Sequence record: PZ386965.1
Direction: 5' to 3' (one strand)
Length of the DNA: 64,000 bases
Origin: a phage
Under the pieces are notes generated by a model, which worked only from the letters and a program-made list of their open reading frames with translations, was not told where the DNA came from and did not search any database. Shown in pieces: positions 1 to 21,677 of this stretch (its first letter is position 1; the number at the start of each line of letters is the position of its first letter). The position numbers and the translations under genes are program-made.

Positions 1-128
1 ACACTATGAAGGAATGCATCAGTGTAGTATTCTAATTGAACAGGTTCTTTAATCACTTTAGCCGCTTTGGTTTCAAACAGGCCCATAAGGGCCTTTTTAA
101 GAATTTGTTCGTTAGTGTTCAGTTTCAT
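1..128 (-). CDS. hypothetical protein, N-terminal part only (gene runs off window start)
   Basis: ATG at 128 on minus strand opens a stop-free frame to the window edge (MKLNTNEQILKKALMGLFETKAAK...). Confidence 0.3.
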   Translation of the reverse strand, partial: MKLNTNEQILKKALMGLFETKAAKVIKEPVQLEYYTDAFLHS

Positions 129-175
129 AGTCAAAATCTCTTCGTTAAGTTTATAATTAAAACTTTTTCTAGAAA

Positions 176-1345
176 TCATTCCGGGTACCTCAAAGCGTCA
201 TCAGAGTTAGTTATATCAATAATAGATATGGAGTTTTCTGCTAACCCGTTTTTAGATAATTGACGTTTATAATACCTTTCACAATATGTACACGTTGACC
301 CACAGATTTCATTAGCACAATCAAAATCTGGATGTCTGAACCACCTTTTTTCTAAAAAGCCATCTAACAAAGAGGTTTCAATATTTACTGTATGTGAAAA
401 CTCAGTCTCATTTTCAAGAGTGAAAATAGTCTCTAAAGGCTTCCACAGTTCTAACAAATTACCTTCAAACTTTTCAGAAGCGTATGCTTCAAGAACTTTC
501 AAAATGTAGTCTGTGCTACCTGTACGTCCTGAAACTTTGAATTGAGTGATACCAATATCATTATAAAGTTTCAAATCTTGAGGACGAACAAAACGAGTTC
601 TCAACCAGTTAAATGGGTCTGTATCACGAGCTTTAATACAGTGCTGCATTGGATATCCATTTAAGGATTTAGCATCATCAGCGGTAACATCAGTACTATG
701 GAAAATATAGCAAGAGTCACGATAGCTACAATGTGTTGTATACCCTTTACCAGCATTAGAACAGAACTCATTTACAAGAACTTCAAATATTATATTGTTC
801 TTATTGCAAAACTCTGCTGCACGCTTCAGGAAAGAAACTGAACGGTTCTTATGAATTCCACAGCAGACCTTTTTGATATTATATTGGTCATGCAAGTATT
901 TGATTTGAGTTACGGCATCAACATGTAGAATTGTTGAAACTTCAATCTCAATATCTTTATTGACTTCACGAACAATTTCCATAACAACAGGGTTAGCGAT
1001 AGTAATACGCCATACGCCTATTGACCAAAGATACTGAACATAATCCTGAATAGCTTTCTTCTTCCACTCAACTAGTTCTCTTTTTGAACCAGGATTTATC
1101 GTGTTGAGTGTATAGTTAAAGCAAATACCTAATTCATTACAACGTTTAACATAGTCTTCTAACATCTTTTTGTCAACGTCAGGAAGCCTAAAATCAGGTC
1201 TGGCTGCTACAAAAGCCATTTCTCTTGTAGAACCATATACTTCGTTTATCAAGCTATTAGGATAGGTTTTATTGAGCTCTACGATTTTATCAAGAAGAGC
1301 TAAATCAAAATTCGTTCCGATTTTAAAAGTATTCATTTTTTGCAT
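176..1345 (-). CDS. hypothetical 389-aa protein with C-terminal CxxxCxxC cysteine cluster; first gene of the sugar-nucleotide module
   Basis: Long ORF from track; C-terminal CANEICGSTCTYC cluster; immediately downstream of HAD phosphatase and NTase/kinase genes. Confidence 0.6.
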   Translation of the reverse strand: MQKMNTFKIGTNFDLALLDKIVELNKTYPNSLINEVYGSTREMAFVAARPDFRLPDVDKKMLEDYVKRCNELGICFNYTLNTINPGSKRELVEWKKKAIQDYVQYLWSIGVWRITIANPVVMEIVREVNKDIEIEVSTILHVDAVTQIKYLHDQYNIKKVCCGIHKNRSVSFLKRAAEFCNKNNIIFEVLVNEFCSNAGKGYTTHCSYRDSCYIFHSTDVTADDAKSLNGYPMQHCIKARDTDPFNWLRTRFVRPQDLKLYNDIGITQFKVSGRTGSTDYILKVLEAYASEKFEGNLLELWKPLETIFTLENETEFSHTVNIETSLLDGFLEKRWFRHPDFDCANEICGSTCTYCERYYKRQLSKNGLAENSISIIDITNSDDALRYPE

Positions 1346-1391
1346 CTCGCGTTAATTGATGCGATGGTTTTTACAGGTCTTACTTAAATTA

Positions 1392-1778
1392 TTATAGATT
1401 CGGTTTATATGATTTAAATGTTTCGAATTCGCCTTTATTCATAAGAGTTTTGAATTCGTCAGGACGCATAGCTTTGTCGTCGATAATCCAATCATATACT
1501 GGTTTATGTGTTAGCAAATTATGGTACTTCAAACCAATGTTTTCCAAGTTCTGAATCAGACTTGGGAGAATGTCAATTGCTATACGACCAGGACCTACTG
1601 ACTTCATACCACGAGCAGTGTAAAGCGTTATGGTATGCCCTGCATCATACAGGGCATTAATGGCAGACACCATTTCGACGTCCGGTTTGAAGTTCACGTA
1701 ATCACGATTGTTATTCCACTCTGTTATACAATCATCGACATCAAAACAAAGATTAAGCATGTTTTCTACACGGTGCAT
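1392..1778 (-). CDS. HAD-superfamily phosphatase-like protein
   Basis: Asp-rich DxD motif near N-terminus (FDVDDCIT); ATG overlaps upstream stop (TAATG); track ORF trimmed to internal ATG. Confidence 0.55.
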   Translation of the reverse strand: MHRVENMLNLCFDVDDCITEWNNNRDYVNFKPDVEMVSAINALYDAGHTITLYTARGMKSVGPGRIAIDILPSLIQNLENIGLKYHNLLTHKPVYDWIIDDKAMRPDEFKTLMNKGEFETFKSYKPNL

Positions 1779-3463
1779 TAGATTCGTTCCCATTGATGAG
1801 TGATATCGCCACCGATTGGACGATAGGAAACACCAGTTTCTTTATCAGTTAGTACCCATTTACCAGGATTTTTTGTAATCAGAGTAGCCATTACAGGTTC
1901 TGCTACGTCATAACTAATAGAGCCATCTTGAAGTACACGACCCATGTTACGTAATTGCTTAGTCAGAAGTTCCATACCTTTATAATATGCGGCTACCGCT
2001 TTAAGTGGATTATTCTTGAAATAACCACCTAATGCAATCCAGATAATTGCTACTGCCAAATGATGATACTCGTTAAACGAACTCATCTTTCCATATTTGT
2101 AAACTAATGGATTGATGTTAATAGTCACATTACAAGTTGTTTCATCAATAGTAAACTGTCCCCAGGTCGGATTAGCATTGAATTCATCATAACCTGAAAC
2201 AGCATAAAGCACTTTAGCTTCATCGTACAATTTTGGCCCGTAAATCTTGGTTTCACCAAAATATCCACGAGGGTCGATAAACTTGACTTCGCCGTTATCA
2301 GTAATCATAGTATTACTGAAGTTCGGGTCACCATGAATAACAGAGTACTGTCCCTGAGAACGGTTATGATAACGAATAAGATGTTCTAAAGCTTGTTTCA
2401 ACATTGGCTTCAGACGTCCAATCTTAGTGTAGTTCACGTGTGTGATTTTACCAAATGAATCAATCAATGGCTGAATGCTTTCACAACGATCAATAACTTT
2501 CGTATAGAACTCTTTAGTGAAATCACGGCGAACAGTTTCAGGACTTACAAAATAAGTGTCCGTGCTGAATTTCAGTGCATCTAAAATTGCATCAACAATT
2601 TGTGGACGAGCAAGACTTGATTTGGATTTAATATATTCAAATGCCGGCTTACCTTTAATACGTTCCATTTCAAAATTATTTTCATTTACCGAAACTAACT
2701 GAGGAACTGAATCTGATTTCACTTTCAAGTACCATGAAATCTCATCTTTTTGAAGAGCTCGACCTTGTTCGGTTAACGCGAATTTAGTTACAGTTTCTTC
2801 GCCAATTTCAACTGCATTAAAACTACGATTAAGTTCACGAACTTCATGAGCTTTTTCAAGTTTAGGCATATCACCTAAATCAATTAGATTCATAAGCTCT
2901 GATTTATTGAATGCACTCCCGTAAAGGAATTCTACAAAATCACGTCCTTTGCAGTATTCGTGAATTTCCTCATCAGTAGAACCCATGTAGAATTCCCAGT
3001 CTTTGAACTGATAAATTCCTACAACATTACCGCCTGTTGAACCTACGTTAGTGATATTTTCACCATCGAAATTATATCGACATTCATCACCCTTAACATA
3101 GATTGCGTTAACATTCCAAGACCATGAACCAAAATCAGGAATAATATCACACCAGTTAACAATTACGTTATGTCCATCTAAATCTTTGTATAATTTAGCA
3201 AGAGCATAAGCAGAACCATACGCTTCATCAACTGTACGAATAGTCACATTGAACCCTTCTTGCTCACAATAAGCTCGAACAGTTTCAGCAAATTTTGAAT
3301 GAACTACTACAATAATTTCATCTGCGCCAAGGTCAGAATAAATTGTATACAAATTGCTCAGAATAGTGTCTTGTTTATAGTTAACAAGCACCTTAGGAAT
3401 ATGATGCGTTATTGGATACAAACGAGTTGCCAGTCCAGCACCAAGAATAACAGCTTTTTTCAT
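1778..3463 (-). CDS. bifunctional sugar-1-phosphate nucleotidyltransferase / sugar kinase (APH-like)
   Basis: N-terminal GxGTRLxPIT-type signature (ILGAGLATRLYPIT) of NDP-sugar pyrophosphorylases; C-terminal HGDxxxxN (HGDPNFSN) and IDPRG kinase motifs. Confidence 0.7.
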   Translation of the reverse strand: MKKAVILGAGLATRLYPITHHIPKVLVNYKQDTILSNLYTIYSDLGADEIIVVVHSKFAETVRAYCEQEGFNVTIRTVDEAYGSAYALAKLYKDLDGHNVIVNWCDIIPDFGSWSWNVNAIYVKGDECRYNFDGENITNVGSTGGNVVGIYQFKDWEFYMGSTDEEIHEYCKGRDFVEFLYGSAFNKSELMNLIDLGDMPKLEKAHEVRELNRSFNAVEIGEETVTKFALTEQGRALQKDEISWYLKVKSDSVPQLVSVNENNFEMERIKGKPAFEYIKSKSSLARPQIVDAILDALKFSTDTYFVSPETVRRDFTKEFYTKVIDRCESIQPLIDSFGKITHVNYTKIGRLKPMLKQALEHLIRYHNRSQGQYSVIHGDPNFSNTMITDNGEVKFIDPRGYFGETKIYGPKLYDEAKVLYAVSGYDEFNANPTWGQFTIDETTCNVTININPLVYKYGKMSSFNEYHHLAVAIIWIALGGYFKNNPLKAVAAYYKGMELLTKQLRNMGRVLQDGSISYDVAEPVMATLITKNPGKWVLTDKETGVSYRPIGGDITHQWERI

Positions 3464-3504
3464 GTTGTGGTCCTCATTGGTAAGTAGGTGTATTGTACAC
3501 TATT

Positions 3505-3615
3505 CTAGTTAAAGCATTCATACTTTGCTTGTAGTCCAATCATAATCCATCCGATTATAAGAGTCGGAATCATTACTGGAGCCGTTAAGCTCCAGTAGAT
3601 AGTCATGACAAGCAT
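3505..3615 (-). CDS. possible small hydrophobic protein (36 aa)
   Basis: Short ORF MLVMTIYWSLTAPVMIPTLIIGWIMIGLQAKYECFN in the intergenic gap; no motif support. Confidence 0.2.
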   Translation of the reverse strand: MLVMTIYWSLTAPVMIPTLIIGWIMIGLQAKYECFN

Positions 3616-3644
3616 CAATAGTAAAAGTCCTATTGTTATTGCTT

Positions 3645-4280
3645 TCATTGCTCGCCTCGTAACATGGCACCTAGTGCACCGCCTGGATGGAACTTAAGGA
3701 AGTCATTAGAGGTAAATCCACGTTCAGACGAAAGGTTGATAGCGAACGTATCGATAAGCGCTAACAACAATGTAGTGGACATTGTCGGAGCTAAAGAGTT
3801 CTCGTCAACTTCTACCGCGATACCGGTACAGAACGTATAATCAAAAAGAGCTTCGTATTCTTGCGGAATGTCCGGGTTACAATGCAACAGAATCTGTTTA
3901 ACCTGAGGACGAATCATACGAAGATGTTTAGCAACACCTATCATTTCTTCAGTTTTACCAGAACGACTAATATGAATCAACACGTCATTAGGCGCAATGA
4001 ATCCTGCATCACCGTGAGAATAATGCCCAGTGTTCAAGTACATACTTGGGATACCGAGTGAAGCAAATGTCTCGGAAGCTTTAGTTGCAATATTAGCATT
4101 CTTACCAACACCTGTAATAATTACTCGGCTTTCATAATTACTAAGACCAGGGCGTCGAAGAGTTTCTAGAATAGCATTATAACGAGCAGGGTTTTGACTA
4201 ATTACTTTAGCCATAGCGGCCAAAGAAGAAGCTTGTTTTATGATTGCGTCAATAGCGATATTAATAGGAGTAGTTTTCAT
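3645..4280 (-). CDS. SIS-domain sugar-phosphate isomerase (arabinose-5-P / heptose isomerase-like)
   Basis: SIS-like phosphosugar-binding region (ITGVGKNANIATKASETFASLGI), ~210 aa typical of single-domain SIS isomerases. Confidence 0.65.
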   Translation of the reverse strand: MKTTPINIAIDAIIKQASSLAAMAKVISQNPARYNAILETLRRPGLSNYESRVIITGVGKNANIATKASETFASLGIPSMYLNTGHYSHGDAGFIAPNDVLIHISRSGKTEEMIGVAKHLRMIRPQVKQILLHCNPDIPQEYEALFDYTFCTGIAVEVDENSLAPTMSTTLLLALIDTFAINLSSERGFTSNDFLKFHPGGALGAMLRGEQ

Positions 4281-4320
4281 ATTTCTCTCATTTAATTAGT
4301 TTACCGTCCATGGTATTATA

Positions 4321-7032
4321 TCAAAAATCGAACATATCGAACAGAGATGCTTTCTTCTCGTAATCGAGTTTCGCTGCTGATGTGAATCCTTCAAGTGGTT
4401 TAATAAATGTCTTCTCAAGGAGAACAGTGTAGTCCATCCAATGAAGTACGTCGTCTTTAATTAAATCTGTGATTTCAGTACCAGAAGGCCATGCGATACA
4501 TTTATCACCGAATGGGTTTCCTTCACGTAAAGGCAGAACATATACTTTTTCACCTTCTACAACTTGTGGAGCATCAATATTACCTTTGATAGCCCGGTTA
4601 TACGTCAGAATTCCACGAATATGGAACGGACATTTAGGGCCAGGGAATCCACCAACATCATATTTAGCAATGTTATTCGCAGAAGATACCGACGCGATGC
4701 TAATATAATTCAATTGACGGAATTCTTTTTCAAACTCTTTAAAATATTCTTGTAATGATTCTTCACCTTCTTGAAGCATACGACGAATACATTCCTTAAG
4801 AGCTTTCTGTACTGCTTTAGGAGTCGAAGATTTCTGAGTCTCGAGACCCATGATTTTGAGTTTAGGCTCAGCGTATCTGGTTCCTTCCATATCCCACACG
4901 TTTAATGCATAACGTTTCTTACCAGTCCAAAATCCGCCAATACCTTTAGAACCGAGCGGAGGGCCAGCAATAGCTTCTCGGTCCATGAACATTAAGTGTT
5001 GTTTATTGTTCATGTATTCACACATTTCACGGAAACCTCTATCAATAGCTGGTTCCATACGTTCACGTGCAAACTTATCTAAGAAGTCTACCCAATGGTT
5101 AGTATCACGGAATTTAGATTCACCAACCTTATCAATAATTTTATCTGCAGATACGTAAATAGAGTCTGTATCACCATAAAGAACGAAAGCTTCACCTTCT
5201 GTACCACAAACTTCATTCAGATATTCATTAACTTTACGTTCAATCCACTGTAAAGCCATTTGTCCGAATGTTGTGATTGCAGTAGCATTACGCAAATCAT
5301 AATAACGGAACCAGACGTTGCCAAGTGCACCATAAAGTGAGTTGATAAGCAATTTACGGTTAATTTGTGCAGTCATACCTGCAACTTCAGTACGTTGAGC
5401 TCTAAACAACATTTCATTAAGAGATTTAGCAGACAACTTTTTAATCTTTTCTTTAATCTCATCACTGAAGTCGAAACGATAATCAACATCTAATGGTTCG
5501 TCAACAGAAAGATTAGGATTATGCAATGCCTCTTTAATTATTTCACCGTTACGTTGAGCTGCAAGCATGTAACCTTTATGTTCTTTACGTTGATTAAAGA
5601 CCTTAGTGATTTCAGTTGGAACTACACCATCACGATCTTTATAATACATCATGCCGTTAGGAGAACAACTGTACACATCTGAAGGACGTTCAGCGATTGC
5701 GTTAATATAATCATGCAATGGAGCTACTTTAAACGTTCCTGCTATTGTTTCCGGGCTAATATTCACTTGGCGAATAATACTTGGATACAGAGATGTAAGG
5801 TCGAAACTCATTACATATTTGTATCGATTTGGAATAGGTTCCTTAACAAAAGCGCCAGGATAAGGTTGAACCGGGTGAGAACGACCTTGTGGAATCACCT
5901 TGTTCTGCTCTTTAAGGCTATTAAAAATAATAGCATCCCATGTTTTAATTGGGCTAAACACAGATTGAATCTGTATCTTAGCATAATAACCCATGTCCAA
6001 ACTCAAGTTGATGAACTGACGCTTAGCATCAATTTGCAATACACGATACACGTCGATAATGTTATAAGAAATATATCGTTGGTGATTGCTTTCACGAAGC
6101 TTAGAAATAGGGCCGTCATATTTCAGTTTACCAACGTTCAATTCAAATTCTGAAATGTAATCCAGAGAATACGACGGTTGATTGGTAAAAGAGAATTTTT
6201 TGTAAAGGTCGATATAATCAAGAACAGAGATACCGAACAATGTAATGATTTCACGAGAACCATACATGTTTTCGATAACTTTAACACGAGTTTTACGATG
6301 TGGTGATAAACGTTTCGCAGTAGATTCGCCAAAAATATTCTTGATTCTGTTATACACATATGGAATATCAAATGACTCAACGTTCCATCCAGTCAAAATG
6401 ACAGGAGTTTTCTGTTGCCAGAAGTTGAGATATTCCATCAACAATTCTTTTTCGTTATCGAACGGCATATAAATGATTTTATCGATAATTTCAGATGGAA
6501 CTTCATCACCACCTTGTTCTTGAAGCTTAGCCGCAATTTCGATAGACCATTCTTCTACATTACCATACGGAGAATTCAATAGATCAAATACGTAGAACCT
6601 GTCGTCAATTGAGTCATAATGGGTGATAGCATCAATCGGATGTTTTGCTTGTGACGGCTCAGGGAACCCATCCGGAGATGTTACTTCGATGTCGAAGTTA
6701 GCCACACGAATTTTTGTATGGTCGTATTTGATTTCATAGTTATAAGTGTCAGACAAATACGCCAATTTGAAATCGTCCATGCCAAGTGCTTCAAGTCCGA
6801 TATCTTCCATGCGTTTAATCCATTGGGAGGCATCACGCATATTAGCGAACAACTTACGAGTACACGGCTTACCGTAGATATCGAAATATTTCGTAGCCTG
6901 ACTTTCTGGACAATGAGCAAACAGTGATGGTTTATATTCTACTTCACGAGTACGTTCACGGCCATTAGAATCGATGTAACGTTCAAAAATTGAATCACCA
7001 ATCTGTTCAACCGTTAAGTAAAATTCTTTCAT
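4321..7032 (-). CDS. 43: DNA polymerase (family B, T4 gp43 type)
   Basis: 903 aa; exonuclease FDIEVTS and polymerase YGDTDS motifs; N-terminus MKEFYLTVEQIGDSIFERYID matches RB69/T4 gp43 as I recall it. Confidence 0.97.
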   Translation of the reverse strand: MKEFYLTVEQIGDSIFERYIDSNGRERTREVEYKPSLFAHCPESQATKYFDIYGKPCTRKLFANMRDASQWIKRMEDIGLEALGMDDFKLAYLSDTYNYEIKYDHTKIRVANFDIEVTSPDGFPEPSQAKHPIDAITHYDSIDDRFYVFDLLNSPYGNVEEWSIEIAAKLQEQGGDEVPSEIIDKIIYMPFDNEKELLMEYLNFWQQKTPVILTGWNVESFDIPYVYNRIKNIFGESTAKRLSPHRKTRVKVIENMYGSREIITLFGISVLDYIDLYKKFSFTNQPSYSLDYISEFELNVGKLKYDGPISKLRESNHQRYISYNIIDVYRVLQIDAKRQFINLSLDMGYYAKIQIQSVFSPIKTWDAIIFNSLKEQNKVIPQGRSHPVQPYPGAFVKEPIPNRYKYVMSFDLTSLYPSIIRQVNISPETIAGTFKVAPLHDYINAIAERPSDVYSCSPNGMMYYKDRDGVVPTEITKVFNQRKEHKGYMLAAQRNGEIIKEALHNPNLSVDEPLDVDYRFDFSDEIKEKIKKLSAKSLNEMLFRAQRTEVAGMTAQINRKLLINSLYGALGNVWFRYYDLRNATAITTFGQMALQWIERKVNEYLNEVCGTEGEAFVLYGDTDSIYVSADKIIDKVGESKFRDTNHWVDFLDKFARERMEPAIDRGFREMCEYMNNKQHLMFMDREAIAGPPLGSKGIGGFWTGKKRYALNVWDMEGTRYAEPKLKIMGLETQKSSTPKAVQKALKECIRRMLQEGEESLQEYFKEFEKEFRQLNYISIASVSSANNIAKYDVGGFPGPKCPFHIRGILTYNRAIKGNIDAPQVVEGEKVYVLPLREGNPFGDKCIAWPSGTEITDLIKDDVLHWMDYTVLLEKTFIKPLEGFTSAAKLDYEKKASLFDMFDF

Positions 7033-7090
7033 TTAATTTCCTTTAGACGAGTTATTGTCTTTTGTTTGTTGATGAACTTATTATACTCCA

Positions 7091-7111
7091 AATGGGACCG
7101 AAGTCCCATTG
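7091..7111 (-). terminator. stem-loop with UUCG tetraloop between regA and gene 43
   Basis: GGGAC-TTCG-GTCCC hairpin on transcribed strand. Confidence 0.4.
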
Positions 7112-7113
7112 CT

Positions 7114-7482
7114 TTAATTACCAATTGTATATTTTGCTTTCAAAGTCCAGTCATCTTTCTGTTTAAAAGAGATAACACGGAAGTTATTAGTCAGGCCAAA
7201 CAGATCTTCACGAGCAGAGTCTTCAATAACAATTAATCCCCAGTCTTCAAGCAACTGAGCAATCGAATCACGTCGCTGATAGTCTTCACCATCAATATCA
7301 ACCTGACGTCCATCCATACGCAACATTTCTTTAAAGTGGACGATATAATACTTACCTTGCTTTTGGAGGATATGACAAGACTGGTAAAGGACTTTATCCT
7401 TGTTATTAGCGATGCCCATACGAGTCAAAGTCTCTTTGACTTTCAGAAAATCTTCAGGGTTCTTCAATTTAATTTCAATCAT
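7114..7482 (-). CDS. regA: translational repressor RegA
   Basis: 122 aa from MIEIKLKNPEDFLKVKETLTRMGIANNKDKVLYQSCHILQK, collinear with T4 RegA; start overlaps gene 62 stop. Confidence 0.9.
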   Translation of the reverse strand: MIEIKLKNPEDFLKVKETLTRMGIANNKDKVLYQSCHILQKQGKYYIVHFKEMLRMDGRQVDIDGEDYQRRDSIAQLLEDWGLIVIEDSAREDLFGLTNNFRVISFKQKDDWTLKAKYTIGN

Positions 7483-10245: not shown

Positions 10246-10437
10246 TTATTCGTAGAAGTCAGTAACTGTCCATGCGGAATTGCGATTAGACATTATTTTA
10301 TTATACTCATCTTTAAAAGCAGATTTGAGCATTTGTTCAGTAACAATATGTTCTTCACCTGAAAACGTATTGGTCAAAACATATTTTTTAATTTCAGGGA
10401 CAACGAGAAGATGTTGTCCGGTTGAATACTCCGCCAT
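10246..10437 (-). CDS. gp45.2-like small protein
   Basis: 63-aa ORF in T4 45.2 position. Confidence 0.6.
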   Translation of the reverse strand: MAEYSTGQHLLVVPEIKKYVLTNTFSGEEHIVTEQMLKSAFKDEYNKIMSNRNSAWTVTDFYE

Positions 10438-10461
10438 TATAAATCTCCGTGTTTAAAGCAA

Positions 10462-10469
10462 TATAAATA
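10462..10469 (+). promoter_or_regulatory. late promoter TATAAATA upstream of HNH endonuclease gene
   Basis: Exact TATAAATA about 45 nt upstream of ATG at 10515. Confidence 0.5.
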
Positions 10470-10514
10470 GGTTTATCAATTTATCTGTTGCTGTATCAAA
10501 TAAGGATTTAGTAA

Positions 10515-11231
10515 ATGAATTATAACTCAATATACGAAAAGCTTATTACCAATGCTAAATCAAGAAGTTTAGATGGTTATACAGAACGTCATCACATTAT
10601 ACCACAATGTTTAGGTGGAAGTGATGATGCTTCAAACTTAGTAGACTTAACACCAGAAGAACATTATTTGGCACATCAACTGTTGGTAAAAATCTATCCA
10701 GATAATGCCTCTTTAATATACGCTGCTCGTATGATGACCATATCATCTCCTAAAGCAGATAGAAGCAAAAACAAATTATTTGGATGGCTTCGTCGTAAGA
10801 ATCAAGAAGTTCAAAAGAACAAAGAATTCACGGCTGAAACCCGTAAGAAAATGTCCGAGTCTGCAAAAAATAAACCAAAGATTACCTGTCCACATTGTGG
10901 TTTAACTGGAACTGAAGGAAACATGCGTCGTTGGCATTTTGATAATTGTAAACAAGGTCCAACGCCTAAAATAGTAAAATTATCTGATGATGAAAAACAG
11001 AGGATAAGTTCTAAACTTAAAACAATAGAGTGGAAACTCCACACATGTGTACACTGTGGTCTAGAAGGAAAAGCTTGCAATATAGTTCCTCATGAGAAAA
11101 ACTGCAAACTTAATCCTAATAGAATAAAACCTAATGTAACAATAGTGGAATGTCCATACTGCTCTAAAAGTGGTTCTATATCAAATATGAAAAGATGGCA
11201 TTTCGATAATTGTAAATATAAGCCTCATTAA
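10515..11231 (+). CDS. free-standing HNH homing endonuclease with three Cys-rich repeats
   Basis: HNH core HHIIPQCLGGSDDASNLVDLTPEEHYLAH; three repeats of CxxCG...RRWHFDNCK; only plus-strand gene inside a minus-strand block. Confidence 0.85.
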   Translation: MNYNSIYEKLITNAKSRSLDGYTERHHIIPQCLGGSDDASNLVDLTPEEHYLAHQLLVKIYPDNASLIYAARMMTISSPKADRSKNKLFGWLRRKNQEVQKNKEFTAETRKKMSESAKNKPKITCPHCGLTGTEGNMRRWHFDNCKQGPTPKIVKLSDDEKQRISSKLKTIEWKLHTCVHCGLEGKACNIVPHEKNCKLNPNRIKPNVTIVECPYCSKSGSISNMKRWHFDNCKYKPH

Positions 11232-12916
11232 GAGGCTTTCATCACAGTAAATCGTCCAACTTTGCTCATTTGAAGATGTTGTCCATAAGCTTGTGGGTCA
11301 TGGTCTCTGTGACTAATTATAAACACGTTTGCATCGGTTAGAGAGTTAAGAATTGTTGAAATAGCTTTAATACCTTCAGAATCAGTCGCGGAATCCATGA
11401 CTTCGTCCATAATTAATGTATTGATTCTAACACCAGAGACCTTTTCAGCAATATCTCGCCATGTAAACAACAATGCGATATCGATACGTGCCTTTTCACC
11501 TTGACTAAATGAAGCATAACTGAACTCTTCACGGCCACGTGATTTTATAGATTCATTGAATTCTTCATCAATAGAAAACACGTAATCAGCTTCCATGATT
11601 TTAAGGTAATGGTTAATCTGCTTGTTGAACAGAGGCACATATTTTTTAATGATAGCACCTTTAATACCAGAATCTTTTAACATATCTGTGATAATACCAC
11701 GATGGTATTTTTCAAGAACGATATCTGATTTTGTTTTAATGATTTTATCAAGTTCTTTTTGAAGCAAAGCTATCTCATCGGCATGGTCGATAAATTCCGC
11801 CGAGGCTTGTTCTATTGCAGCTTTAACTTTCTTAGCTTTATCAATAGTGGCAATCATTGCTTGTTTCTTGGTACGAATATCAGATGCAAGGTCCTGTTTA
11901 GTCTTAACATTAGCTCTATATTCGTCCACTAGGACACTCAGATTATCTCTGTGACATGTAAGTTGCTCGAATGAGTGATTACATTCATGAAGCTTATCGG
12001 TAATCTTAGAGACAATAGGATCACCCTGGTGCAACTGTGATGCACAAGTAGGACATGTACCGCCATCATGATACATCTTAATAACTTTGTTATATGAGTC
12101 AATTTTAGATTTAATCAAGAATGCTTCTTGTCCGATCTTGTTGAATGCCTCAGTAGGGTCTTCGTCAAGAACGATATTAAGTAGACGCTCATTAGCTTCT
12201 TCGATTTCTGCTTTTAATGAACGAGCTTCTTTGGCTAGGTCGTCATACATATTCTGTAGACGCGCTACATTATCACCAGATAATTTCTTTTGACGTTCGA
12301 TATTCTCGTTATAAATCTTAATTTGTTGGATAACACCATCTTTCTTGGCATCGAGAACTTGTCCCTGGGAATTAAGTTCTCGAACTTGAGACTTATTGAT
12401 TTTATCCATTTCAGCAAGTGTGCCGACTTCTAAAAGGTCTTCGACAAGTTTTCTACGAGCAGGGGTGCTAAGAGCCATGAAAGGGGTATACCCTGCCGTC
12501 CCAAGCACAACGATCTGTTTAAAAGACGCGTATGACATTCCGATGCTACGTTCAAATTCTTCTTGGAAGTCACGACTGCTGGCAGATTCATCGAGACGAA
12601 CACCGTCAACGGAGATTTCGAAAATATTGGGCTTTTGGCCACGTTTAATGAAGTATTTTTTATCATCGAATTCCATCCAAAGCTCAACTAAGAGCTCTTT
12701 CTTGTTCGTGCTATTAATGATTTGTCCTTTCTTAACATCACGAAATGGTTTACCGAAAAGTCCGAAAGTAATGGCTTCTAACATCGTAGATTTACCACCG
12801 CCATTTTTACCAGTGATTAATGTTTTTTGGACTTTATCTAATTGGATATCAATAGGATTCCCACCTACCGACATGATGTTTTGATAACGAACACGATTTA
12901 ATTTAAATGATTTCAT
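11228..12916 (-). CDS. 46: recombination endonuclease subunit gp46 (Rad50/SbcC-like)
   Basis: 562 aa; Walker A GKNGGGKST; coiled-coil middle; T4 order. Confidence 0.93.
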   Translation of the reverse strand: MKSFKLNRVRYQNIMSVGGNPIDIQLDKVQKTLITGKNGGGKSTMLEAITFGLFGKPFRDVKKGQIINSTNKKELLVELWMEFDDKKYFIKRGQKPNIFEISVDGVRLDESASSRDFQEEFERSIGMSYASFKQIVVLGTAGYTPFMALSTPARRKLVEDLLEVGTLAEMDKINKSQVRELNSQGQVLDAKKDGVIQQIKIYNENIERQKKLSGDNVARLQNMYDDLAKEARSLKAEIEEANERLLNIVLDEDPTEAFNKIGQEAFLIKSKIDSYNKVIKMYHDGGTCPTCASQLHQGDPIVSKITDKLHECNHSFEQLTCHRDNLSVLVDEYRANVKTKQDLASDIRTKKQAMIATIDKAKKVKAAIEQASAEFIDHADEIALLQKELDKIIKTKSDIVLEKYHRGIITDMLKDSGIKGAIIKKYVPLFNKQINHYLKIMEADYVFSIDEEFNESIKSRGREEFSYASFSQGEKARIDIALLFTWRDIAEKVSGVRINTLIMDEVMDSATDSEGIKAISTILNSLTDANVFIISHRDHDPQAYGQHLQMSKVGRFTVMKAS

Positions 12917-19392: not shown

Positions 19393-19863
19393 TTAATCAT
19401 GTTTCCACACCCCATCGGTATTTGACCAAAGTCGCTGATTATCTGATCCTCGCCACAACTTTTTGGTCGGAAGATTTTTCTCATACTTACCATCAATAAT
19501 AACATCAACATATTTAAGCATTTCTAGTTGTTTAATATCTTCAAACTTATATCCTGTCCACAACCAAATGCTTTTACTGGGATAAAGATTTTTAATAGTT
19601 TGAACCACAGAGTGAATCACATCTCTGTTATCAGGATAGAGAGGGTCACCTCCGGTTATAGTCAATCCTTCTATATAATCATTATTCAAACATTCAATTA
19701 ATTGTTCTAGTGTCTCTCCGGTGAATGGAGCACCATTTCTAGCGTTCCATGTTGATTTATTATAACACCCTTCGCATTTATGCAAACAACCTGTAACGAA
19801 AAGAACGACCCTGCAACCAGGGCCATTAACAAAATCGCAAGGATAAAATCTATCATAATTCAT
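19393..19863 (-). CDS. nrdG: anaerobic ribonucleotide reductase activating protein NrdG
   Basis: Radical-SAM CxxxCxxC (CLHKCEGC); 156 aa. Confidence 0.93.
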   Translation of the reverse strand: MNYDRFYPCDFVNGPGCRVVLFVTGCLHKCEGCYNKSTWNARNGAPFTGETLEQLIECLNNDYIEGLTITGGDPLYPDNRDVIHSVVQTIKNLYPSKSIWLWTGYKFEDIKQLEMLKYVDVIIDGKYEKNLPTKKLWRGSDNQRLWSNTDGVWKHD

Positions 19864-21677
19864 TGGTGTTTAACCCTATGCATGATTTCTTTATTTTTAC
19901 CGAGATTAAATCCGCGTTCGTTCGGATTTCCAAGATAACCGCATGTTCTTCTTATGGTGTTCATCTTTTTAGGATCAGTTTCTCCACAAACTGAACAAAC
20001 AAATCCATTTTCAGTAGGAGTCATTTCATGAGTACTTCCGCATGTAAAACATTTATCCACTGGCATATTAACACCAAAATAATCTAAATGTTGCGCAGCA
20101 TAATCCCAGACAGCCTCAAGTCCCTTTAAATTGTTTTTCATATCTGGAAGTTCAACATAAGAAATGTGACCACCTGTCGCAATGAAATGATACGGCGCTT
20201 CACGAGAAATCTTTTCAAACGGAGTAATATTTTCTTCTACTGAAACATGGAAACTATTAGTGTACCAGCCTTTATCGGTAACATCTTTTACGCTTCCATA
20301 TTTTTCAGTATCAAGTTTACAGAAGCGATAACAAAGGTTTTCAGCAGGAGTAGAATATAAACTAAAAGCAAATCCAGTTCTTTCGGTCCACTGTTTAAGA
20401 TGAGCATTCATTTTAGTTAAAATTTCTTGTCCAATATCACGACCAACAAGAATATTCAATTCATGAATACCAATGTATCCTAAAGACACTGAACTTCTGC
20501 CGTTTTTAAATAACTCAATTATATCGTCATCAGGTTTAAGACGAACCCCGAATGCACCTTCTTGGTAAAGAATAGGAGCAACAGTCGCTTTAACTCCTTT
20601 TAAAGAACTAATTCTACACATCAAGGCTTCAAAACACAGATCCATTCGTTCATTAAATAGCTCAACAAATTTCTGTTCATTGAACTGTGTTCCAATATAA
20701 GAATCTAACGCGATACGAGGAAGATTCAGTGTTACAACACCAAGATTATTACGTCCATCAAGAATTTCATTACCAGTCGAATCTTTCCATACGCTCAAGA
20801 AACTACGGCAACCCATTGGAGAAACAGGAACTGAAGAACCGGTAATAGCTTTATTATTCTTAACAGAAATAATGTCAGGATACATTCTTTTGCTTGCACA
20901 TTCTAACGCAAGTTGTTTAATATCATAGTTTGGATCATCTTTATAAAGATTAACACCTTCTTCAACAAACATAACAAGTTTAGGAAAAATAGGAGTTATT
21001 CCATCACGACCAAGACCTTTAATGCGGTTTTTAAGAATTGCCTTCTGAATCATTCGTTCAGTCCAGTCGGTTCCTGTTCCAAATGTTATAGTAACAAAAG
21101 GAGTTTGCCCGTTTGAACTAAAAAGAGTATTTACTTCATATTCATAAGCTTGGAATGCATCGTATACGTCTTTTTCCGTTTTAGATTGAGCATAATTCAA
21201 CGCATCAGCGATTTGCCATTTTTCTGCATCCTCAATATGTTTTGCATAGGTGCGTTTAACATAGGGAGAAAGTACTTTATCTACATTAGCAAAAGTCGTT
21301 CCGCCGTATTGATGGGAAGCAACTTGTGCAGTAATTTGTGCCATAATTGCAGTAGCAACACCAATCGATTTAGGCGTTTCGATTTGAGCATTGCCTAATT
21401 TAAAACCATTCTCAAGCATCCCCTTTAAATCGACTAAACAGCAATTAGTAAACGGAAGAGCAGGAGAATAATCAATATCATGCATGTGGATAATTCCACT
21501 TTCATGCGCATTCATAATAAAAGACGGGACCGTATTTTTGGCAATGTGCTTAGACACAATACCAGCCATAAGGTCCCGTTGAGTTGGAAAAACACGAGAA
21601 TCTTTATTAGCATTCTCGTTCAAAAGATCTTTATTAGTTTTACGAATTAATCCTTCAATTTCTTTTTCAATTTTCAT
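19860..21677 (-). CDS. nrdD: anaerobic ribonucleoside-triphosphate reductase NrdD
   Basis: 605 aa continuous; C-terminal glycyl radical motif RRTCGYLG and Zn-ribbon cysteines. Confidence 0.95.
   Translation of the reverse strand: MKIEKEIEGLIRKTNKDLLNENANKDSRVFPTQRDLMAGIVSKHIAKNTVPSFIMNAHESGIIHMHDIDYSPALPFTNCCLVDLKGMLENGFKLGNAQIETPKSIGVATAIMAQITAQVASHQYGGTTFANVDKVLSPYVKRTYAKHIEDAEKWQIADALNYAQSKTEKDVYDAFQAYEYEVNTLFSSNGQTPFVTITFGTGTDWTERMIQKAILKNRIKGLGRDGITPIFPKLVMFVEEGVNLYKDDPNYDIKQLALECASKRMYPDIISVKNNKAITGSSVPVSPMGCRSFLSVWKDSTGNEILDGRNNLGVVTLNLPRIALDSYIGTQFNEQKFVELFNERMDLCFEALMCRISSLKGVKATVAPILYQEGAFGVRLKPDDDIIELFKNGRSSVSLGYIGIHELNILVGRDIGQEILTKMNAHLKQWTERTGFAFSLYSTPAENLCYRFCKLDTEKYGSVKDVTDKGWYTNSFHVSVEENITPFEKISREAPYHFIATGGHISYVELPDMKNNLKGLEAVWDYAAQHLDYFGVNMPVDKCFTCGSTHEMTPTENGFVCSVCGETDPKKMNTIRRTCGYLGNPNERGFNLGKNKEIMHRVKHQ

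What the first reader, a model, noticed from the sequence alone, without database searches (positions are those of the whole stretch)
176..4280. Sugar-nucleotide biosynthesis module beside the DNA polymerase gene
In the place where T4 carries gene 42, beta-gt and imm, four co-oriented genes encode a SIS-domain sugar-phosphate isomerase (3645..4280), a fused NDP-sugar pyrophosphorylase plus APH-like sugar kinase (1778..3463; ILGAGLATRLYPIT and HGDPNFSN), a HAD-like phosphatase (1392..1778) and a 389-aa Cys-cluster protein (176..1345). Together they read as a complete route from a pentose/heptose phosphate to an activated NDP-sugar. No alpha-glucosyltransferase gene follows gene 47 here. The simplest interpretation is a phage-encoded pathway making a non-glucose donor for glycosylating hydroxymethylated cytosine in phage DNA; arabinosyl-hmC has been reported for RB69-like phages. 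The 389-aa protein is a candidate for the transferase or an accessory enzyme.
Basis: partly seen in the sequence, partly recalled or inferred. Interest (0 to 1): 0.8.

Follow-up and report, generated by a model that had tools for sequence, protein, structure and literature searches.

The report
Phage DNA-arabinosylation module, unexplained U32 gene
These genes are the already published RB69-type pathway that makes activated arabinose for decorating the phage's own DNA cytosines, but the fourth gene, which has no assigned role, looks like an oxygen-independent enzyme that puts the hydroxyl handle on the cytosine.

Summary
The four co-oriented ORFs are real and sit at the stated coordinates. The window comes from a Mosigvirus about 97.6% identical in DNA to RB69. 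Three genes are the published UDP-arabinofuranose route: the SIS arabinose-5-phosphate isomerase (gp55), the nucleotidyltransferase+kinase fusion (gp52:53, AfhE-like) and the HAD phosphatase (gp51, AfhF-like). This was proposed in 2018 and studied biochemically in 2025-2026, so the finding is already known. The acceptor base is now reported as 5-hydroxycytosine, not hydroxymethylcytosine. The 389-aa protein is not a transferase: it is a U32-family Fe-S TIM-barrel protein, and the real transferases and the hydroxylase gp48 lie off-window.

The new lead concerns that U32 protein (gp50), which has no role in the literature I could read. It keeps three of the four [4Fe-4S] ligands of UbiU, RlhA and TrhP in register. 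Its partners across phages are a nucleotide kinase and the Aat1-like DNA glycosyltransferase. All 10 T4-like clusters pair it with the O2-dependent ThyA-type hydroxylase, whereas none of 27 non-T4 clusters has that enzyme. It was not found in phages of the strict aerobe Acinetobacter. I infer an O2-independent pyrimidine-dNMP C5 hydroxylase (probability about 0.45).

The parts
3645..4280 (-). SIS-domain arabinose-5-phosphate isomerase (RB69 gp55 homolog): Ru5P to Ara5P. Single SIS domain, without the tandem CBS domains of KdsD/GutQ.
   Evidence: ORF. Pfam SIS 4e-10. NCBIfam KpsF/GutQ 5e-32 and KdsD 2e-30, matching only profile positions 47-202 of 328. phrog_5670 at 2e-116. Function assigned by structure comparison in PMC13326640.
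3505..3648 (-). 47-aa very hydrophobic small ORF (RB69 ORF054c region), start overlapping the isomerase stop; function unknown.
   Evidence: phrog_3610 at 4.5e-27. No Pfam hit.
1778..3463 (-). Bifunctional AfhE-like enzyme (RB69 gp52:53): N-terminal sugar-1-phosphate nucleotidyltransferase (about residues 1-110, GxGxRL motif at 6-19) and C-terminal APH/choline-kinase-type sugar kinase (HGDPNFSN 377-384, IDPRG 396-400). Intact here as 561 aa.
   Evidence: phrog_4098 at 4e-294. The extra base that splits the gene in the RB69 GenBank record is absent here, matching the resequencing in PMC6024577. Biochemistry of the HY126 AfhE homolog is summarised in PMC13326640.
1392..1793 (-). HAD-IIIA-type phosphatase (RB69 gp51, AfhF-like): Ara-1,5-P2 to Ara-1-P. 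The start is either ATG 1793 or ATG 1778.
   Evidence: DVDDC motif I. NCBIfam TIGR01689 'capsule biosynthesis phosphatase' 2e-13. phrog_1238 (its label 'phosphoheptose isomerase' is a mis-annotation). AfhF role as summarised in PMC13326640.
176..1345 (-). U32-family Fe-S TIM-barrel protein (RB69 gp50), 389 aa. Predicted U32-domain [4Fe-4S] site at C206/C212/C236 (plus probably C195), and a C-terminal CX4CX3CX2C cluster (C343, C348, C352, C355). Inferred to be an O2-independent pyrimidine-dNMP C5 hydroxylase.
   Evidence: PF01136 at 7e-11. 99% identical to NP_861740. Cys conservation. Ligand register against UbiU/UbiV/RlhA/TrhP. AF2 pLDDT 87.6, with top PDB match the U32 structure 5D88. Gene-neighbourhood statistics.
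3..179 (-). 5' part (59 codons) of the gp49-like small gene, whose start overlaps the U32 stop codon (ATGA). Cut by the window's left edge. Function unknown.
   Evidence: tblastn to AlbertHofmann gp49 gives 91.5% over 59 aa. Junction. No Pfam hit. A small ORF with an overlapping start follows U32 in the Klebsiella and Shewanella phages too, but its sequence is not conserved beyond close relatives.

Best explanation
The region is the sugar-activation half of the RB69-type cytosine hypermodification module, plus one accessory gene.

Shown elsewhere for near-identical proteins: gp55 isomerises ribulose-5-P to arabinose-5-P. The C-terminal kinase of the gp52:53 fusion makes arabinose-1,5-bisphosphate. 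The HAD phosphatase gp51 removes the 5-phosphate. The N-terminal nucleotidyltransferase of gp52:53 makes UDP-arabinofuranose. In relatives 97% identical, the genes just left of the window encode the dCMP 5-hydroxylase gp48 (a flavin- and O2-dependent ThyA homolog), a TMK-like kinase, and arabinosyltransferase gp46:47. Together these put arabinose on 5-hydroxycytosine in replicated DNA and so protect it from restriction.

Inferred here: the 389-aa U32 protein (gp50) is neither part of sugar synthesis nor a transferase. It is an Fe-S hydroxylase of the RlhA/TrhP/UbiU-V kind that makes the 5-hydroxy-pyrimidine deoxynucleotide without O2, probably using prephenate as the oxygen donor. It would give phages of facultative anaerobes an anaerobic twin of gp48, in the way TrhP pairs with TrhO and UbiU-V pair with UbiI/H/F. 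It would serve as the only hydroxylase in many uncultured non-T4 phages.

Confidence is about 0.9 for the module identity and about 0.45-0.5 for the gp50 mechanism.
For: Module identity:
- ORFs, motifs and domains are as described.
- The window is 97.6% identical in DNA to RB69 over 9.7 kb, and gp50 is 99% identical.
- The same gene order is found in 153 phage records.
- The pathway and the 5hoC chemistry are published (PMC6024577; PMC13326640; PMC13390438).

gp50 as a U32 Fe-S enzyme:
- PF01136 above the gathering score.
- The confident AF2 model has the U32 structure 5D88 as its best PDB match.
- C206, C212 and C236 align with UbiU C169/C176/C193, UbiV C180/C193, RlhA C169/C176/C192 and TrhP C170/C177/C193, which include the experimentally defined ligands.
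- R49, E188, K270-x-x-G273-R274 and Y280 are shared with the E. coli enzymes.
- The best profile match is RlhA, the 5-hydroxycytidine synthase (E = 8e-5).
- Distant family members hit the TrhP and UbiU equivalog models (4e-8 and 2e-7).

gp50 is not a sugar enzyme:
- Acinetobacter phages DLP1 and Ac42 and E. coli phage Bp7 have every other module gene but no U32 or gp49. DLP3 makes tri-arabinosyl-5hoC without it.
- In 11 of 27 non-T4 clusters U32 directly follows the Aat1-like GT with no sugar-activation genes nearby.

gp50 in the hydroxylase slot:
- Across 37 de-duplicated clusters, all 10 T4-like ones have both U32 and the gp48-type ThyA homolog.
- Of the 27 others, none has a gp48-type ThyA homolog, while 21 have the GT and 24 a TMK-like kinase.
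- The ThyA profile does detect E. coli ThyA at 7e-13.
- A 30%-identical member sits between a SurE nucleotidase and a TMK/dCMP-deaminase fusion followed by dCTP-deaminase/dUTPase.

Oxygen logic:
- gp48's oxygen comes from O2.
- U32 enzymes are linked to O2-independent, prephenate-dependent hydroxylation.
- The phage carries anaerobic nrdD/nrdG.
- All 222 phage records with U32 are at least 80% identical, and those listed come from Enterobacterales or Shewanella phages, while 57 Acinetobacter records have AfhE.
- nrdD likewise does not reach the by-genus top ten for Acinetobacter.
- gp50 is the most conserved module protein: 82-86% identical where the DNA polymerase is 65-69%.
Against: - Nothing was measured on this genome. 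The hydroxylase gp48 and both transferases are outside the window and are inferred from relatives.
- For gp50, no U32 protein has yet been shown in vitro to be a hydroxylase (PMC10990095), so the chemistry is a family-level inference.
- The fourth canonical Cys ligand is not in register. gp50 has R240 there, like UbiU, and C195 is only a guess.
- The similarity to characterised U32 enzymes is remote, at 16-18% identity.
- Roughly 40 or more Escherichia phage records (Dhakavirus such as Bp7) have the 5hoC-type module without U32 although their host is a facultative anaerobe.
- The metagenomic loci cover only 8-10 kb either side, so a ThyA-type hydroxylase could sit elsewhere in those genomes.
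- One non-T4 locus (L037) has a canonical dUMP-type ThyA next to its GT.
- In 10 of 27 non-T4 clusters U32 does lie beside SIS/AfhE-like sugar genes, and in 6 beside a KdsA/DAHP-synthase-family gene.
- The host-lifestyle correlation rests on few independent lineages, and the full by-genus lists could not be seen.
- I could not read He et al. 2026 or Mahler et al. 2025, which may already assign or exclude a role for gp50.
Confidence: 0.8

Rival explanations
1. gp50 is an accessory enzyme of the sugar branch, for example the 'sugar or heterocycle reductase' suggested in a table of PMC13326640. It would act on arabinose phosphate or UDP-arabinose rather than on the base.
For: It lies between the HAD phosphatase and gp49 in this window. 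In 10 of 27 non-T4 clusters it follows SIS and AfhE-like genes, and in 6 it neighbours a KdsA/DAHP-synthase-family gene that could use arabinose-5-P. The label appears in the published table, and the record for phage AlbertHofmann annotates it as UDP-arabinose biosynthesis.
Against: The published route from Ru5P to UDP-Araf is complete without it. DLP3/DLP1, Ac42 and Bp7 encode the whole module without it. Eleven non-T4 clusters have only TMK-like, GT and U32 beside the polymerase, with no sugar genes. A distant member sits among dNMP enzymes only. No characterised U32 protein acts on a sugar.
Confidence: 0.12
2. gp50 is an RNA hydroxylase, a phage copy of RlhA/TrhP activity that modifies host or phage rRNA or tRNA (ho5C, ho5U) to tune translation, and is unrelated to DNA modification.
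For: The only characterised pyrimidine-directed U32 enzymes act on RNA, and RlhA is the best profile match. T4-like phages encode tRNAs (general knowledge).
Against: gp50 lacks the extra C-terminal domains of RlhA (653 aa) and TrhP (453 aa). Its gene is embedded in the DNA-modification module in every T4-like locus. It is linked on the same strand within 6.5 kb to the DNA GT in 21 of 27 other clusters and has a nucleotide kinase in the same locus in 24 of 27. Distant members sit next to dCMP deaminase, dUTPase and SurE.
Confidence: 0.06
3. gp50 is a helper of gp48, for example an electron-transfer or flavin-reducing partner or a maturation factor, rather than a hydroxylase itself.
For: The gp50, gp49 and gp48 genes are adjacent in most T4-like loci. 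Fe-S clusters suit electron transfer. gp48 needs reduced flavin.
Against: gp48 with a dNMP kinase is sufficient in E. coli. gp48-bearing Acinetobacter and Dhakavirus phages lack gp50. None of 27 non-T4 clusters with gp50 homologs has a gp48-type enzyme to help.
Confidence: 0.06
4. The four genes are a capsule/LPS-type 'moron' that alters the host surface (KpsF-like isomerase, capsule-type phosphatase, GlmU-like enzyme, collagenase-like peptidase) and have nothing to do with DNA.
For: The best curated-family names are capsule-related (KpsF/GutQ; TIGR01689 capsule biosynthesis phosphatase; GlmU-like). GenBank records use such names. No transferase is present in the window.
Against: RB69-type virion DNA contains arabosylated 5-hydroxycytosine. 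The homologous AfhE and AfhF make UDP-arabinose, and the adjacent GTs act on DNA. The module is fixed between gene 43 and uvsX next to the dCMP hydroxylase in every relative. Inactivating the AfhE homolog in phage Thanatos nearly abolishes propagation.
Confidence: 0.02

Closest known systems
RB69 gp45-gp55 / HY126 Afh / DLP3 gp76-83 arabinosyl-5-hydroxycytosine clusters (Thomas 2018, PMC6024577; Lee et al. 2026, PMC13326640; He et al. 2026 and Mahler et al. 2025, neither readable here)
   Same: Same genes in the same order between DNA polymerase and uvsX. Proteins are 97-99% identical to RB69 (gp50 99%). Same isomerase, kinase/pyrophosphorylase fusion and phosphatase.
   Different: The window stops inside gp49, so gp48, gp46:47, gp45 and gp3 are not in it. 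The 561-aa fusion is intact here, whereas the RB69 GenBank record splits it through a sequencing error. DLP3-type (Acinetobacter) and Dhakavirus clusters lack the U32/gp49 pair.
E. coli U32 Fe-S hydroxylases: RlhA (23S rRNA ho5C2501), TrhP (tRNA ho5U34), UbiU-UbiV (anaerobic ubiquinone)
   Same: PF01136 domain and TIM-barrel fold. Three [4Fe-4S] Cys ligands are in register, and the R, E, KxxGR and Y positions are shared. Like UbiU, it has Arg at the position of the fourth Cys of the CX3C type. If the inference holds, it performs the same C5-pyrimidine hydroxylation as RlhA/TrhP and pairs with an O2/flavin enzyme as UbiU-V and TrhP do.
   Different: Only 16-18% identical. It carries a 10-residue insertion bearing C195, which is 99% conserved. 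It has an extra C-terminal CX4CX3CX2C cluster conserved in 93-95% of the family. It has no RNA-binding extensions and no UbiV-like partner. The family is found in phages and mobile elements, with dNMP-metabolism and DNA-GT neighbours.
T4 hmC glucosylation system (gene 42 dCMP hydroxymethylase, gp1 kinase, alpha-/beta-glucosyltransferases)
   Same: Same logic and the same genomic region: a base is modified at the dNMP level by a ThyA homolog, phosphorylated, incorporated, and then glycosylated on DNA.
   Different: The acceptor is 5-hydroxy- rather than 5-hydroxymethyl-cytosine. The donor is UDP-arabinofuranose made by the phage rather than host UDP-glucose. There are no a-gt or b-gt genes, and there is an additional U32 gene.
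KdsD/GutQ/KpsF arabinose-5-phosphate isomerases
   Same: The SIS catalytic domain matches at 5e-32 to 2e-22.
   Different: 211 aa with only the SIS domain; the match covers positions 47-202 of the 328-residue KdsD profile, so the tandem CBS domains are missing, and the score is below the equivalog cut-offs.
Dual O2-dependent / O2-independent enzyme pairs in T4-like phages (NrdAB versus NrdDG) and in E. coli (TrhO/TrhP, UbiIHF/UbiUV)
   Same: A proposed gp48 (flavin, O2) and gp50 (U32) pair would be the same design. nrdD/nrdG are in this window. nrdD, like U32, does not reach the top ten genera for Acinetobacter phages.
   Different: The gp48/gp50 pairing is inferred, not demonstrated. Some enteric phages have gp48 alone.

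Membership tests
Phage UDP-arabinofuranose / arabinosyl-5-hydroxycytosine module (RB69/HY126/DLP3 type) | SIS-type arabinose-5-phosphate isomerase | tested here: met
   Window 3645-4280: KpsF/GutQ 5e-32, phrog_5670 at 2e-116.
Phage UDP-arabinofuranose / arabinosyl-5-hydroxycytosine module (RB69/HY126/DLP3 type) | Bifunctional N-terminal nucleotidyltransferase + C-terminal sugar kinase (AfhE type), one polypeptide of about 560 aa | tested here: met
   561-aa ORF. NTP_transferase 1e-9 at residues 3-99. Kinase Brenner-type motif HGDPNFSN at 377-384 with weak APH/choline-kinase-type hits. phrog_4098 full length.
Phage UDP-arabinofuranose / arabinosyl-5-hydroxycytosine module (RB69/HY126/DLP3 type) | HAD-type phosphatase (AfhF type) | tested here: met
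   DVDDC motif I; TIGR01689 at 2e-13; HAD-IIIA.
Phage UDP-arabinofuranose / arabinosyl-5-hydroxycytosine module (RB69/HY126/DLP3 type) | Linked ThyA-type 5hodCMP synthase (D169N, N177D signature) and DNA arabinosyltransferase | tested here: inconclusive
   Neither is in the 64-kb window. The window edge cuts gp49, and in relatives 97% identical the next genes are gp48 (RSQN/QLD signature), GT gp46:47 and TMK-like gp45.
Phage UDP-arabinofuranose / arabinosyl-5-hydroxycytosine module (RB69/HY126/DLP3 type) | Virion DNA carries arabinosylated 5-hydroxycytosine; the enzymes make UDP-Araf | not testable with these tools
   Shown for RB69, NP, DLP3 and HY126 in the literature, not for this genome.
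U32 Fe-S hydroxylases (RlhA / TrhP / UbiU-UbiV) | Peptidase_U32 (PF01136) domain and TIM-barrel fold | tested here: met
   PF01136 at 42.2 bits against a cut-off of 22.4. AF2 pLDDT 87.6, top PDB hit 5D88.
U32 Fe-S hydroxylases (RlhA / TrhP / UbiU-UbiV) | Four conserved Cys that ligate a [4Fe-4S] cluster (CX6CX15-16CX3/4C, or CX6CX16CX38C in UbiU) | tested here: inconclusive
   Three are in register: C206, C212 and C236 align with UbiU C169, C176 and C193. The fourth position is R240, as in UbiU (R197), and no Cys lies at UbiU C232. The candidate fourth ligand, C195, is 99% conserved. Metal binding was not measured.
U32 Fe-S hydroxylases (RlhA / TrhP / UbiU-UbiV) | Membership of a named equivalog (RlhA, TrhP, UbiU or UbiV) | tested here: not met
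   The only hit is a weak one to UbiU, 18 bits against a cut-off of 440. hhalign E-values range from 8e-5 to 0.11. This is a separate subfamily found in phages and mobile elements: 1,186 representatives at E <= 1e-3.
U32 Fe-S hydroxylases (RlhA / TrhP / UbiU-UbiV) | O2-independent, prephenate-dependent C-hydroxylation of an aromatic or pyrimidine ring | not testable with these tools
   Family property taken from PMC10990095, PMC6599085 and PMC5727448. Supported here only by gene context and host distribution.
   No GT family hit. The fold is a U32 TIM barrel. There is no similarity to gp46:47 or gp3.
KdsD/GutQ arabinose-5-phosphate isomerase equivalogs | SIS domain followed by tandem CBS domains, scoring above the equivalog cut-off | tested here: not met
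   106 bits against a cut-off of 505. Only profile positions 47-202 of 328 are matched, and the protein is 211 aa. It works like an A5P isomerase but is a truncated, SIS-only form.

The most novel reading that the evidence does not exclude
The gp50-type U32 proteins are a large family, found in phages and mobile elements, of O2-independent (probably prephenate-dependent) hydroxylases that act on pyrimidine deoxynucleoside monophosphates. In RB69-like phages of facultative anaerobes, gp50 would be the anaerobic twin of the flavin/O2-dependent 5hodCMP synthase gp48. In many uncultured DnaE-type and jumbo phages that carry the TMK-like kinase and the Aat1-like glycosyltransferase but no ThyA-type enzyme, it would be the sole source of the 5-hydroxyl acceptor. 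It would be the first U32 enzyme shown to work on DNA precursors, and the first with a small soluble substrate.
Probability: 0.45. Interest if true: 0.8.

Novelty: already known. Interest (0 to 1): 0.42.

Why it matters
The sugar-nucleotide module itself is published, so re-finding it adds nothing beyond confirming that this window belongs to the arabinosyl-5-hydroxycytosine phages.

The value is in the fourth gene. The only known route to 5-hydroxy-dCMP needs molecular oxygen, yet these phages infect gut bacteria and carry anaerobic ribonucleotide reductase. An O2-independent hydroxylase in the same cluster would explain how the DNA stays protected in anoxic habitats.

It would also give a function to a gene conserved in about 220 sequenced phages and about a thousand metagenomic protein clusters. 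It would predict 5-hydroxy-pyrimidine-based DNA modifications in uncultured jumbo phages.

Finally, it would give the U32 field something it lacks. Direct hydroxylase activity has not been shown in vitro for any U32 protein, and a soluble single-polypeptide enzyme with a simple nucleotide substrate would let the prephenate-as-oxygen-donor chemistry be tested directly.

Tried and rejected
- **Unreadable papers.** He et al. 2026 and Mahler et al. 2025 are not held. A search for other Afh gene names returned only acronym collisions. No paper in the library links U32 proteins to phage DNA modification.
- **Sequence search of solved structures with gp50.** Nothing found.
- **Foldseek against afdb50.** Library unavailable, so I could not rank gp50 against the AlphaFold models of RlhA, TrhP or UbiU.
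- **Promoter and terminator scan of 1-7200.** At chance level: 24 promoter-like sites against 28 expected, so no operon claims are made.
- **Radical-SAM neighbour as a general partner of U32.** Found in only 2 of 27 clusters, so dropped.
- **gp49 as an obligatory partner.** A small overlapping ORF follows U32 in several genera, but its sequence is conserved only among close relatives, it is absent from non-T4 loci, and it has no Pfam hit. Left open.
- **The 248-254-aa downstream neighbour in L003/L005.** Only a sub-threshold Epimerase hit. Not pursued.
- **L037 as a counter-example.** It has a ThyA-family ORF, but that ORF keeps D169 and N177, so it is a dUMP-type enzyme and not a 5hodCMP synthase.
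- **Organism names for the MAG copies.** None on record.
- **Base composition.** No anomaly across the region, GC 0.34-0.41, so there is no sign of recent foreign origin.
- **Scan of genome contigs.** Considered, but not run, as too costly for indirect evidence.

Full report
**What is there.** The window's first 4.3 kb carries, on the minus strand and immediately downstream of a T4-type DNA polymerase gene (4321-7032), five complete ORFs and one truncated ORF:
- 3645-4280 (211 aa)
- 3505-3648 (47 aa, very hydrophobic)
- 1778-3463 (561 aa)
- 1392-1793 (133 aa; or 128 aa from the second ATG at 1778)
- 176-1345 (389 aa)
- 3-179, the 5' part of a small gene whose ATG overlaps the 389-aa gene's stop codon as ATGA

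ILGAGLATRLYPIT is at residues 6-19 and HGDPNFSN at 377-384 of the 561-aa protein, and the phosphatase has HAD motif I, DVDDC. Base composition is unremarkable. Consensus promoter and terminator matches are at chance level.

**Where it comes from.** The DNA is 97.6% identical to phage RB69 over 9.7 kb and 97.2% identical to phage AlbertHofmann/Bas47. 153 phage records, almost all Mosigvirus, cover at least 80% of the region, essentially all at 95% identity or more. The 389-aa protein is 99% identical to RB69 gp50. The extra base that splits ORF052/053 in the RB69 GenBank record is absent here. That agrees with the resequencing reported by Thomas et al. (PMC6024577).

**What the three sugar genes are.** Profile searches give the following:
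- A single SIS domain of the KpsF/GutQ/KdsD kind (5e-32), without the CBS domains.
- An N-terminal sugar-1-phosphate nucleotidyltransferase with a C-terminal APH/choline-kinase-type kinase.
- A HAD-IIIA phosphatase (TIGR01689, 2e-13).

This is the set that Thomas et al. 2018 proposed for UDP-arabinose synthesis. Lee et al. 2026 (PMC13326640) describe it for RB69 gp55, gp52:53 and gp51, citing biochemical work on the HY126 homologs AfhE and AfhF. The route is Ru5P to Ara5P, then Ara-1,5-P2, then Ara-1-P, then UDP-Araf. The database labels 'phosphoheptose isomerase', 'GlmU' and 'peptidase' seen in many records are mis-annotations. So the finding is real but already known.

- *Acceptor base.* It is now reported as 5-hydroxycytosine, made as 5hodCMP by the ThyA homolog gp48 with a flavin and with oxygen from O2. 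It is not hydroxymethylcytosine.
- *Transferases.* They are gp46:47 and gp3. tblastn finds no homolog of either, or of gp48, anywhere in the 64-kb window. In the 97%-identical relatives, gp49, gp48, gp46:47 and a TMK-like kinase lie immediately beyond the window's left edge.
- *Gene 42.* Its homolog has therefore not been replaced; it is just off-window.

**The 389-aa protein is a U32 Fe-S protein, not a transferase.**
- It matches Peptidase_U32 above the gathering score.
- An AlphaFold model built on 26 homologs is confident (pLDDT 87.6, pTM 0.88). Its best solved-structure match is the U32 protein Mk0906, 5D88; the remaining hits are generic TIM barrels.
- In an alignment with the four characterised E. 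coli U32 enzymes, C206, C212 and C236 fall on UbiU C169/C176/C193, UbiV C180/C193, RlhA C169/C176/C192 and TrhP C170/C177/C193. These are the residues shown to bind the [4Fe-4S] clusters of UbiU and UbiV (10.1101/587956).
- At the fourth position gp50 has Arg, as UbiU does. C195, sitting in a short insertion, is 99% conserved across the family and is the likely fourth ligand.
- A C-terminal CX4CX3CX2C cluster is conserved in 93-95% of members, which suggests a second metal site.
- The best single-profile match is RlhA, the 23S rRNA 5-hydroxycytidine synthase (E = 8e-5).
- Remote family members hit NCBI's TrhP and UbiU equivalog models.
- It is a separate subfamily. An exhaustive search finds 1,186 cluster representatives at E <= 1e-3, and those I could place are in phages or mobile elements.

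**What gp50 is associated with.**

*In sequenced phages.* The gene occurs in 222 records, all at least 80% identical, and those listed are from phages of Enterobacterales and Shewanella. The AfhE-like enzyme occurs in 374 records, including 57 Acinetobacter phages. I checked Acinetobacter phages DLP1 and Ac42 and E. coli phage Bp7 directly. They have the isomerase (absent in Bp7), AfhE, AfhF, the RSQN/QLD-type ThyA homolog, the GT and the TMK-like kinase, but no U32 or gp49. In the two Acinetobacter phages the phosphatase abuts the ThyA homolog at exactly the position where U32 and gp49 sit here. gp50 is therefore dispensable for making and transferring arabinose.

*Conservation.* gp50 is nevertheless the most conserved protein in the module. 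It is 82-86% identical in Klebsiella, Proteus and Shewanella phages, where the DNA polymerase is 65-69% identical and AfhE 42-54%.

*In metagenomic and IMG/VR contigs.* I ran iterated profiles over 59 loci. Of these, 53 contain U32, forming 37 clusters at 95% U32 identity.

| Gene | T4-like clusters (10) | Other clusters (27) |
|---|---|---|
| gp48-type ThyA homolog | 10 | 0 |
| Aat1-like GT | 10 | 21 |
| TMK-like kinase | 10 | 24 |
| AfhE-like | 10 | 10 |
| SIS isomerase | 8 | 8 |
| HAD phosphatase (AfhF) | 10 | 0 |

The 27 other clusters are mostly DnaE-polymerase phages on contigs up to 466 kb. In 11 of the 21 with a GT, the GT reading frame lies directly upstream of and overlaps U32, and in all 21 the two are on the same strand within 6.5 kb. 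In three clusters the TMK-like and GT parts lie in a single 562-606-aa stop-to-stop reading frame, apparently fused.

*Controls and exceptions.* The ThyA profile detects E. coli ThyA at 7e-13. The single ThyA-family ORF in a non-T4 locus (L037) keeps D169 and N177, so it is a dUMP-type enzyme.

*More distant members.* A 30%-identical member lies between a SurE nucleotidase and a TMK/dCMP-deaminase fusion followed by dCTP-deaminase/dUTPase. Others follow a dCMP deaminase. In bacterial MAG mobile elements, others follow a guanylate-kinase-like gene.

**Inference for gp50.** In T4-type systems three functions define the base branch: an enzyme that modifies the dNMP, a kinase that accepts the modified dNMP, and a DNA glycosyltransferase. 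In the non-T4 phages the kinase and the GT are present, and the only candidate for the first function within reach is the U32 protein.

Every U32 protein with a supported function is linked to O2-independent hydroxylation of an aromatic or pyrimidine carbon. Two of them act at C5 of cytidine or uridine, and prephenate has been shown to be the oxygen donor for UbiU-V (PMC10990095).

The known phage route (gp48) takes its oxygen from O2. These phages infect facultative anaerobes and carry anaerobic ribonucleotide reductase (19393-21677). U32 was not found in phages of the strict aerobe Acinetobacter. nrdD, which encodes an anaerobic-only enzyme, shows the same pattern at the coarse level I could see: Acinetobacter is not among the top ten genera of 2,914 records, where the cut-off is 41 records.

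I therefore propose that gp50 is an O2-independent pyrimidine-dNMP C5 hydroxylase. It would be the anaerobic twin of gp48 here and the sole hydroxylase in many uncultured phages. The pairing would mirror TrhO/TrhP and UbiIHF/UbiUV.

**What is shown and what is inferred.** The fold, the Cys register, the neighbourhood statistics and the distribution are shown here. The chemistry, the substrate (dCMP or dUMP; nucleotide or DNA) and the oxygen donor are inferred.

**Weaknesses.**
- No U32 enzyme has been reconstituted in vitro.
- The fourth ligand is uncertain.
- The similarity to characterised members is remote.
- Dhakaviruses infect E. coli without U32.
- In some non-T4 loci U32 sits among sugar genes, including a KdsA/DAHP-synthase-family gene.
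- The metagenomic loci cover only about 10 kb either side.
- The aerobe/anaerobe contrast rests on few lineages.
- Two key papers could not be read. Within the searchable library no paper connects U32 proteins with phage DNA modification. The RB69 paper lists gp50 only as 'sugar or heterocycle reductase' in a table and cites the RlhA and TrhP papers without linking them to gp50. The Thanatos authors state that they have no hypothesis for the origin of the hydroxyl group.

**Verdict.** The module is already known. The residual interest lies in a specific, testable prediction for gp50.

Noticed in passing
window 10432-11239 (ORF 10515-11231, + strand): An ~0.8-kb insertion relative to RB69 between rpbA/45.2 and gene 46, carrying a 238-aa ORF on the opposite strand with only weak HNH and zinc-ribbon hits (E about 0.01). 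Probably a homing endonuclease.
   Followed up: partly
window 176-1345 compared with L014, L015, L016: The U32 protein is more conserved across phage genera (82-86% identical) than the DNA polymerase (65-69%), the clamp loader (57-65%) or any other module protein. This indicates unusually strong constraint or recent exchange of this gene.
   Followed up: partly
L044 2591-4408; L052/L058 5237-7054; L055 5318-7003: Single stop-to-stop ORFs of 562-606 aa match both the TMK-like kinase and the Aat1-like glycosyltransferase profiles at E < 1e-100. This is an apparent kinase-GT fusion in uncultured phages, linking the two functions.
   Followed up: partly
L062, L063, L064 (bacterial MAG contigs GCA_949048225.1, GCA_947632195.1): A conserved four-gene cassette, GP88 (PF17338) - 400-aa guanylate-kinase-like - ~265-aa unknown - U32 (about 33% identical to gp50), sits next to integrase/resolvase/TraG genes. 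It is a mobile-element version of unknown purpose, either modification or defence.
   Followed up: no
L004 9145-9891; also L035, L046, L047/L049, L051, L053: A DAHP_synth_1-family gene (KdsA/AroG type, 6e-44 in L004) lies next to or near U32 in 6 of 27 non-T4 clusters. It could use arabinose-5-P (a KDO-type sugar) or feed the shikimate-to-prephenate pathway, which supplies the proposed oxygen donor.
   Followed up: no
L017 7777-16179: In this locus U32 is surrounded by a Gly_transf_sug GT, an Aat1-like GT, a TET-associated-glycosyltransferase-family protein (4e-8), a dUTPase/dCTP deaminase and a UDP-galactopyranose mutase. This suggests a multi-sugar (galactofuranose?) DNA hypermodification in an uncultured phage.
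   Followed up: no
L037 5491-6357: A canonical ThyA-like ORF (E 4e-41 to E. coli ThyA; D169 and N177 retained) sits directly upstream of the Aat1-like GT in a 230-kb viral contig that also has U32. This is possibly a dUMP-based (5hmU or dTMP) branch alongside the U32 branch.
   Followed up: partly
window 2700-2900 compared with RB69 NC_004928 29116: The RB69 reference record still carries the single-base insertion that splits the 561-aa gene into ORF052c and ORF053c. This window and most relatives have the intact gene.
   Followed up: yes
L011, L014, L015, L016 (Bp7, Klebsiella AmPh_EK29, Proteus PM2, Shewanella Thanatos-2): No SIS isomerase homolog was detected in these fetched module regions, so these phages presumably rely on host KdsD/GutQ for arabinose-5-P. 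The isomerase is an optional part of the module (8 of 10 T4-like clusters have it).
   Followed up: partly
window 3505-3648 (- strand): A 47-aa ORF made almost entirely of hydrophobic residues (phrog_3610) is wedged between the isomerase and the fusion enzyme, at the position RB69 annotates as similar to the T4 42-imm intercistronic region. It may be a small membrane peptide, with no known link to the pathway.
   Followed up: no
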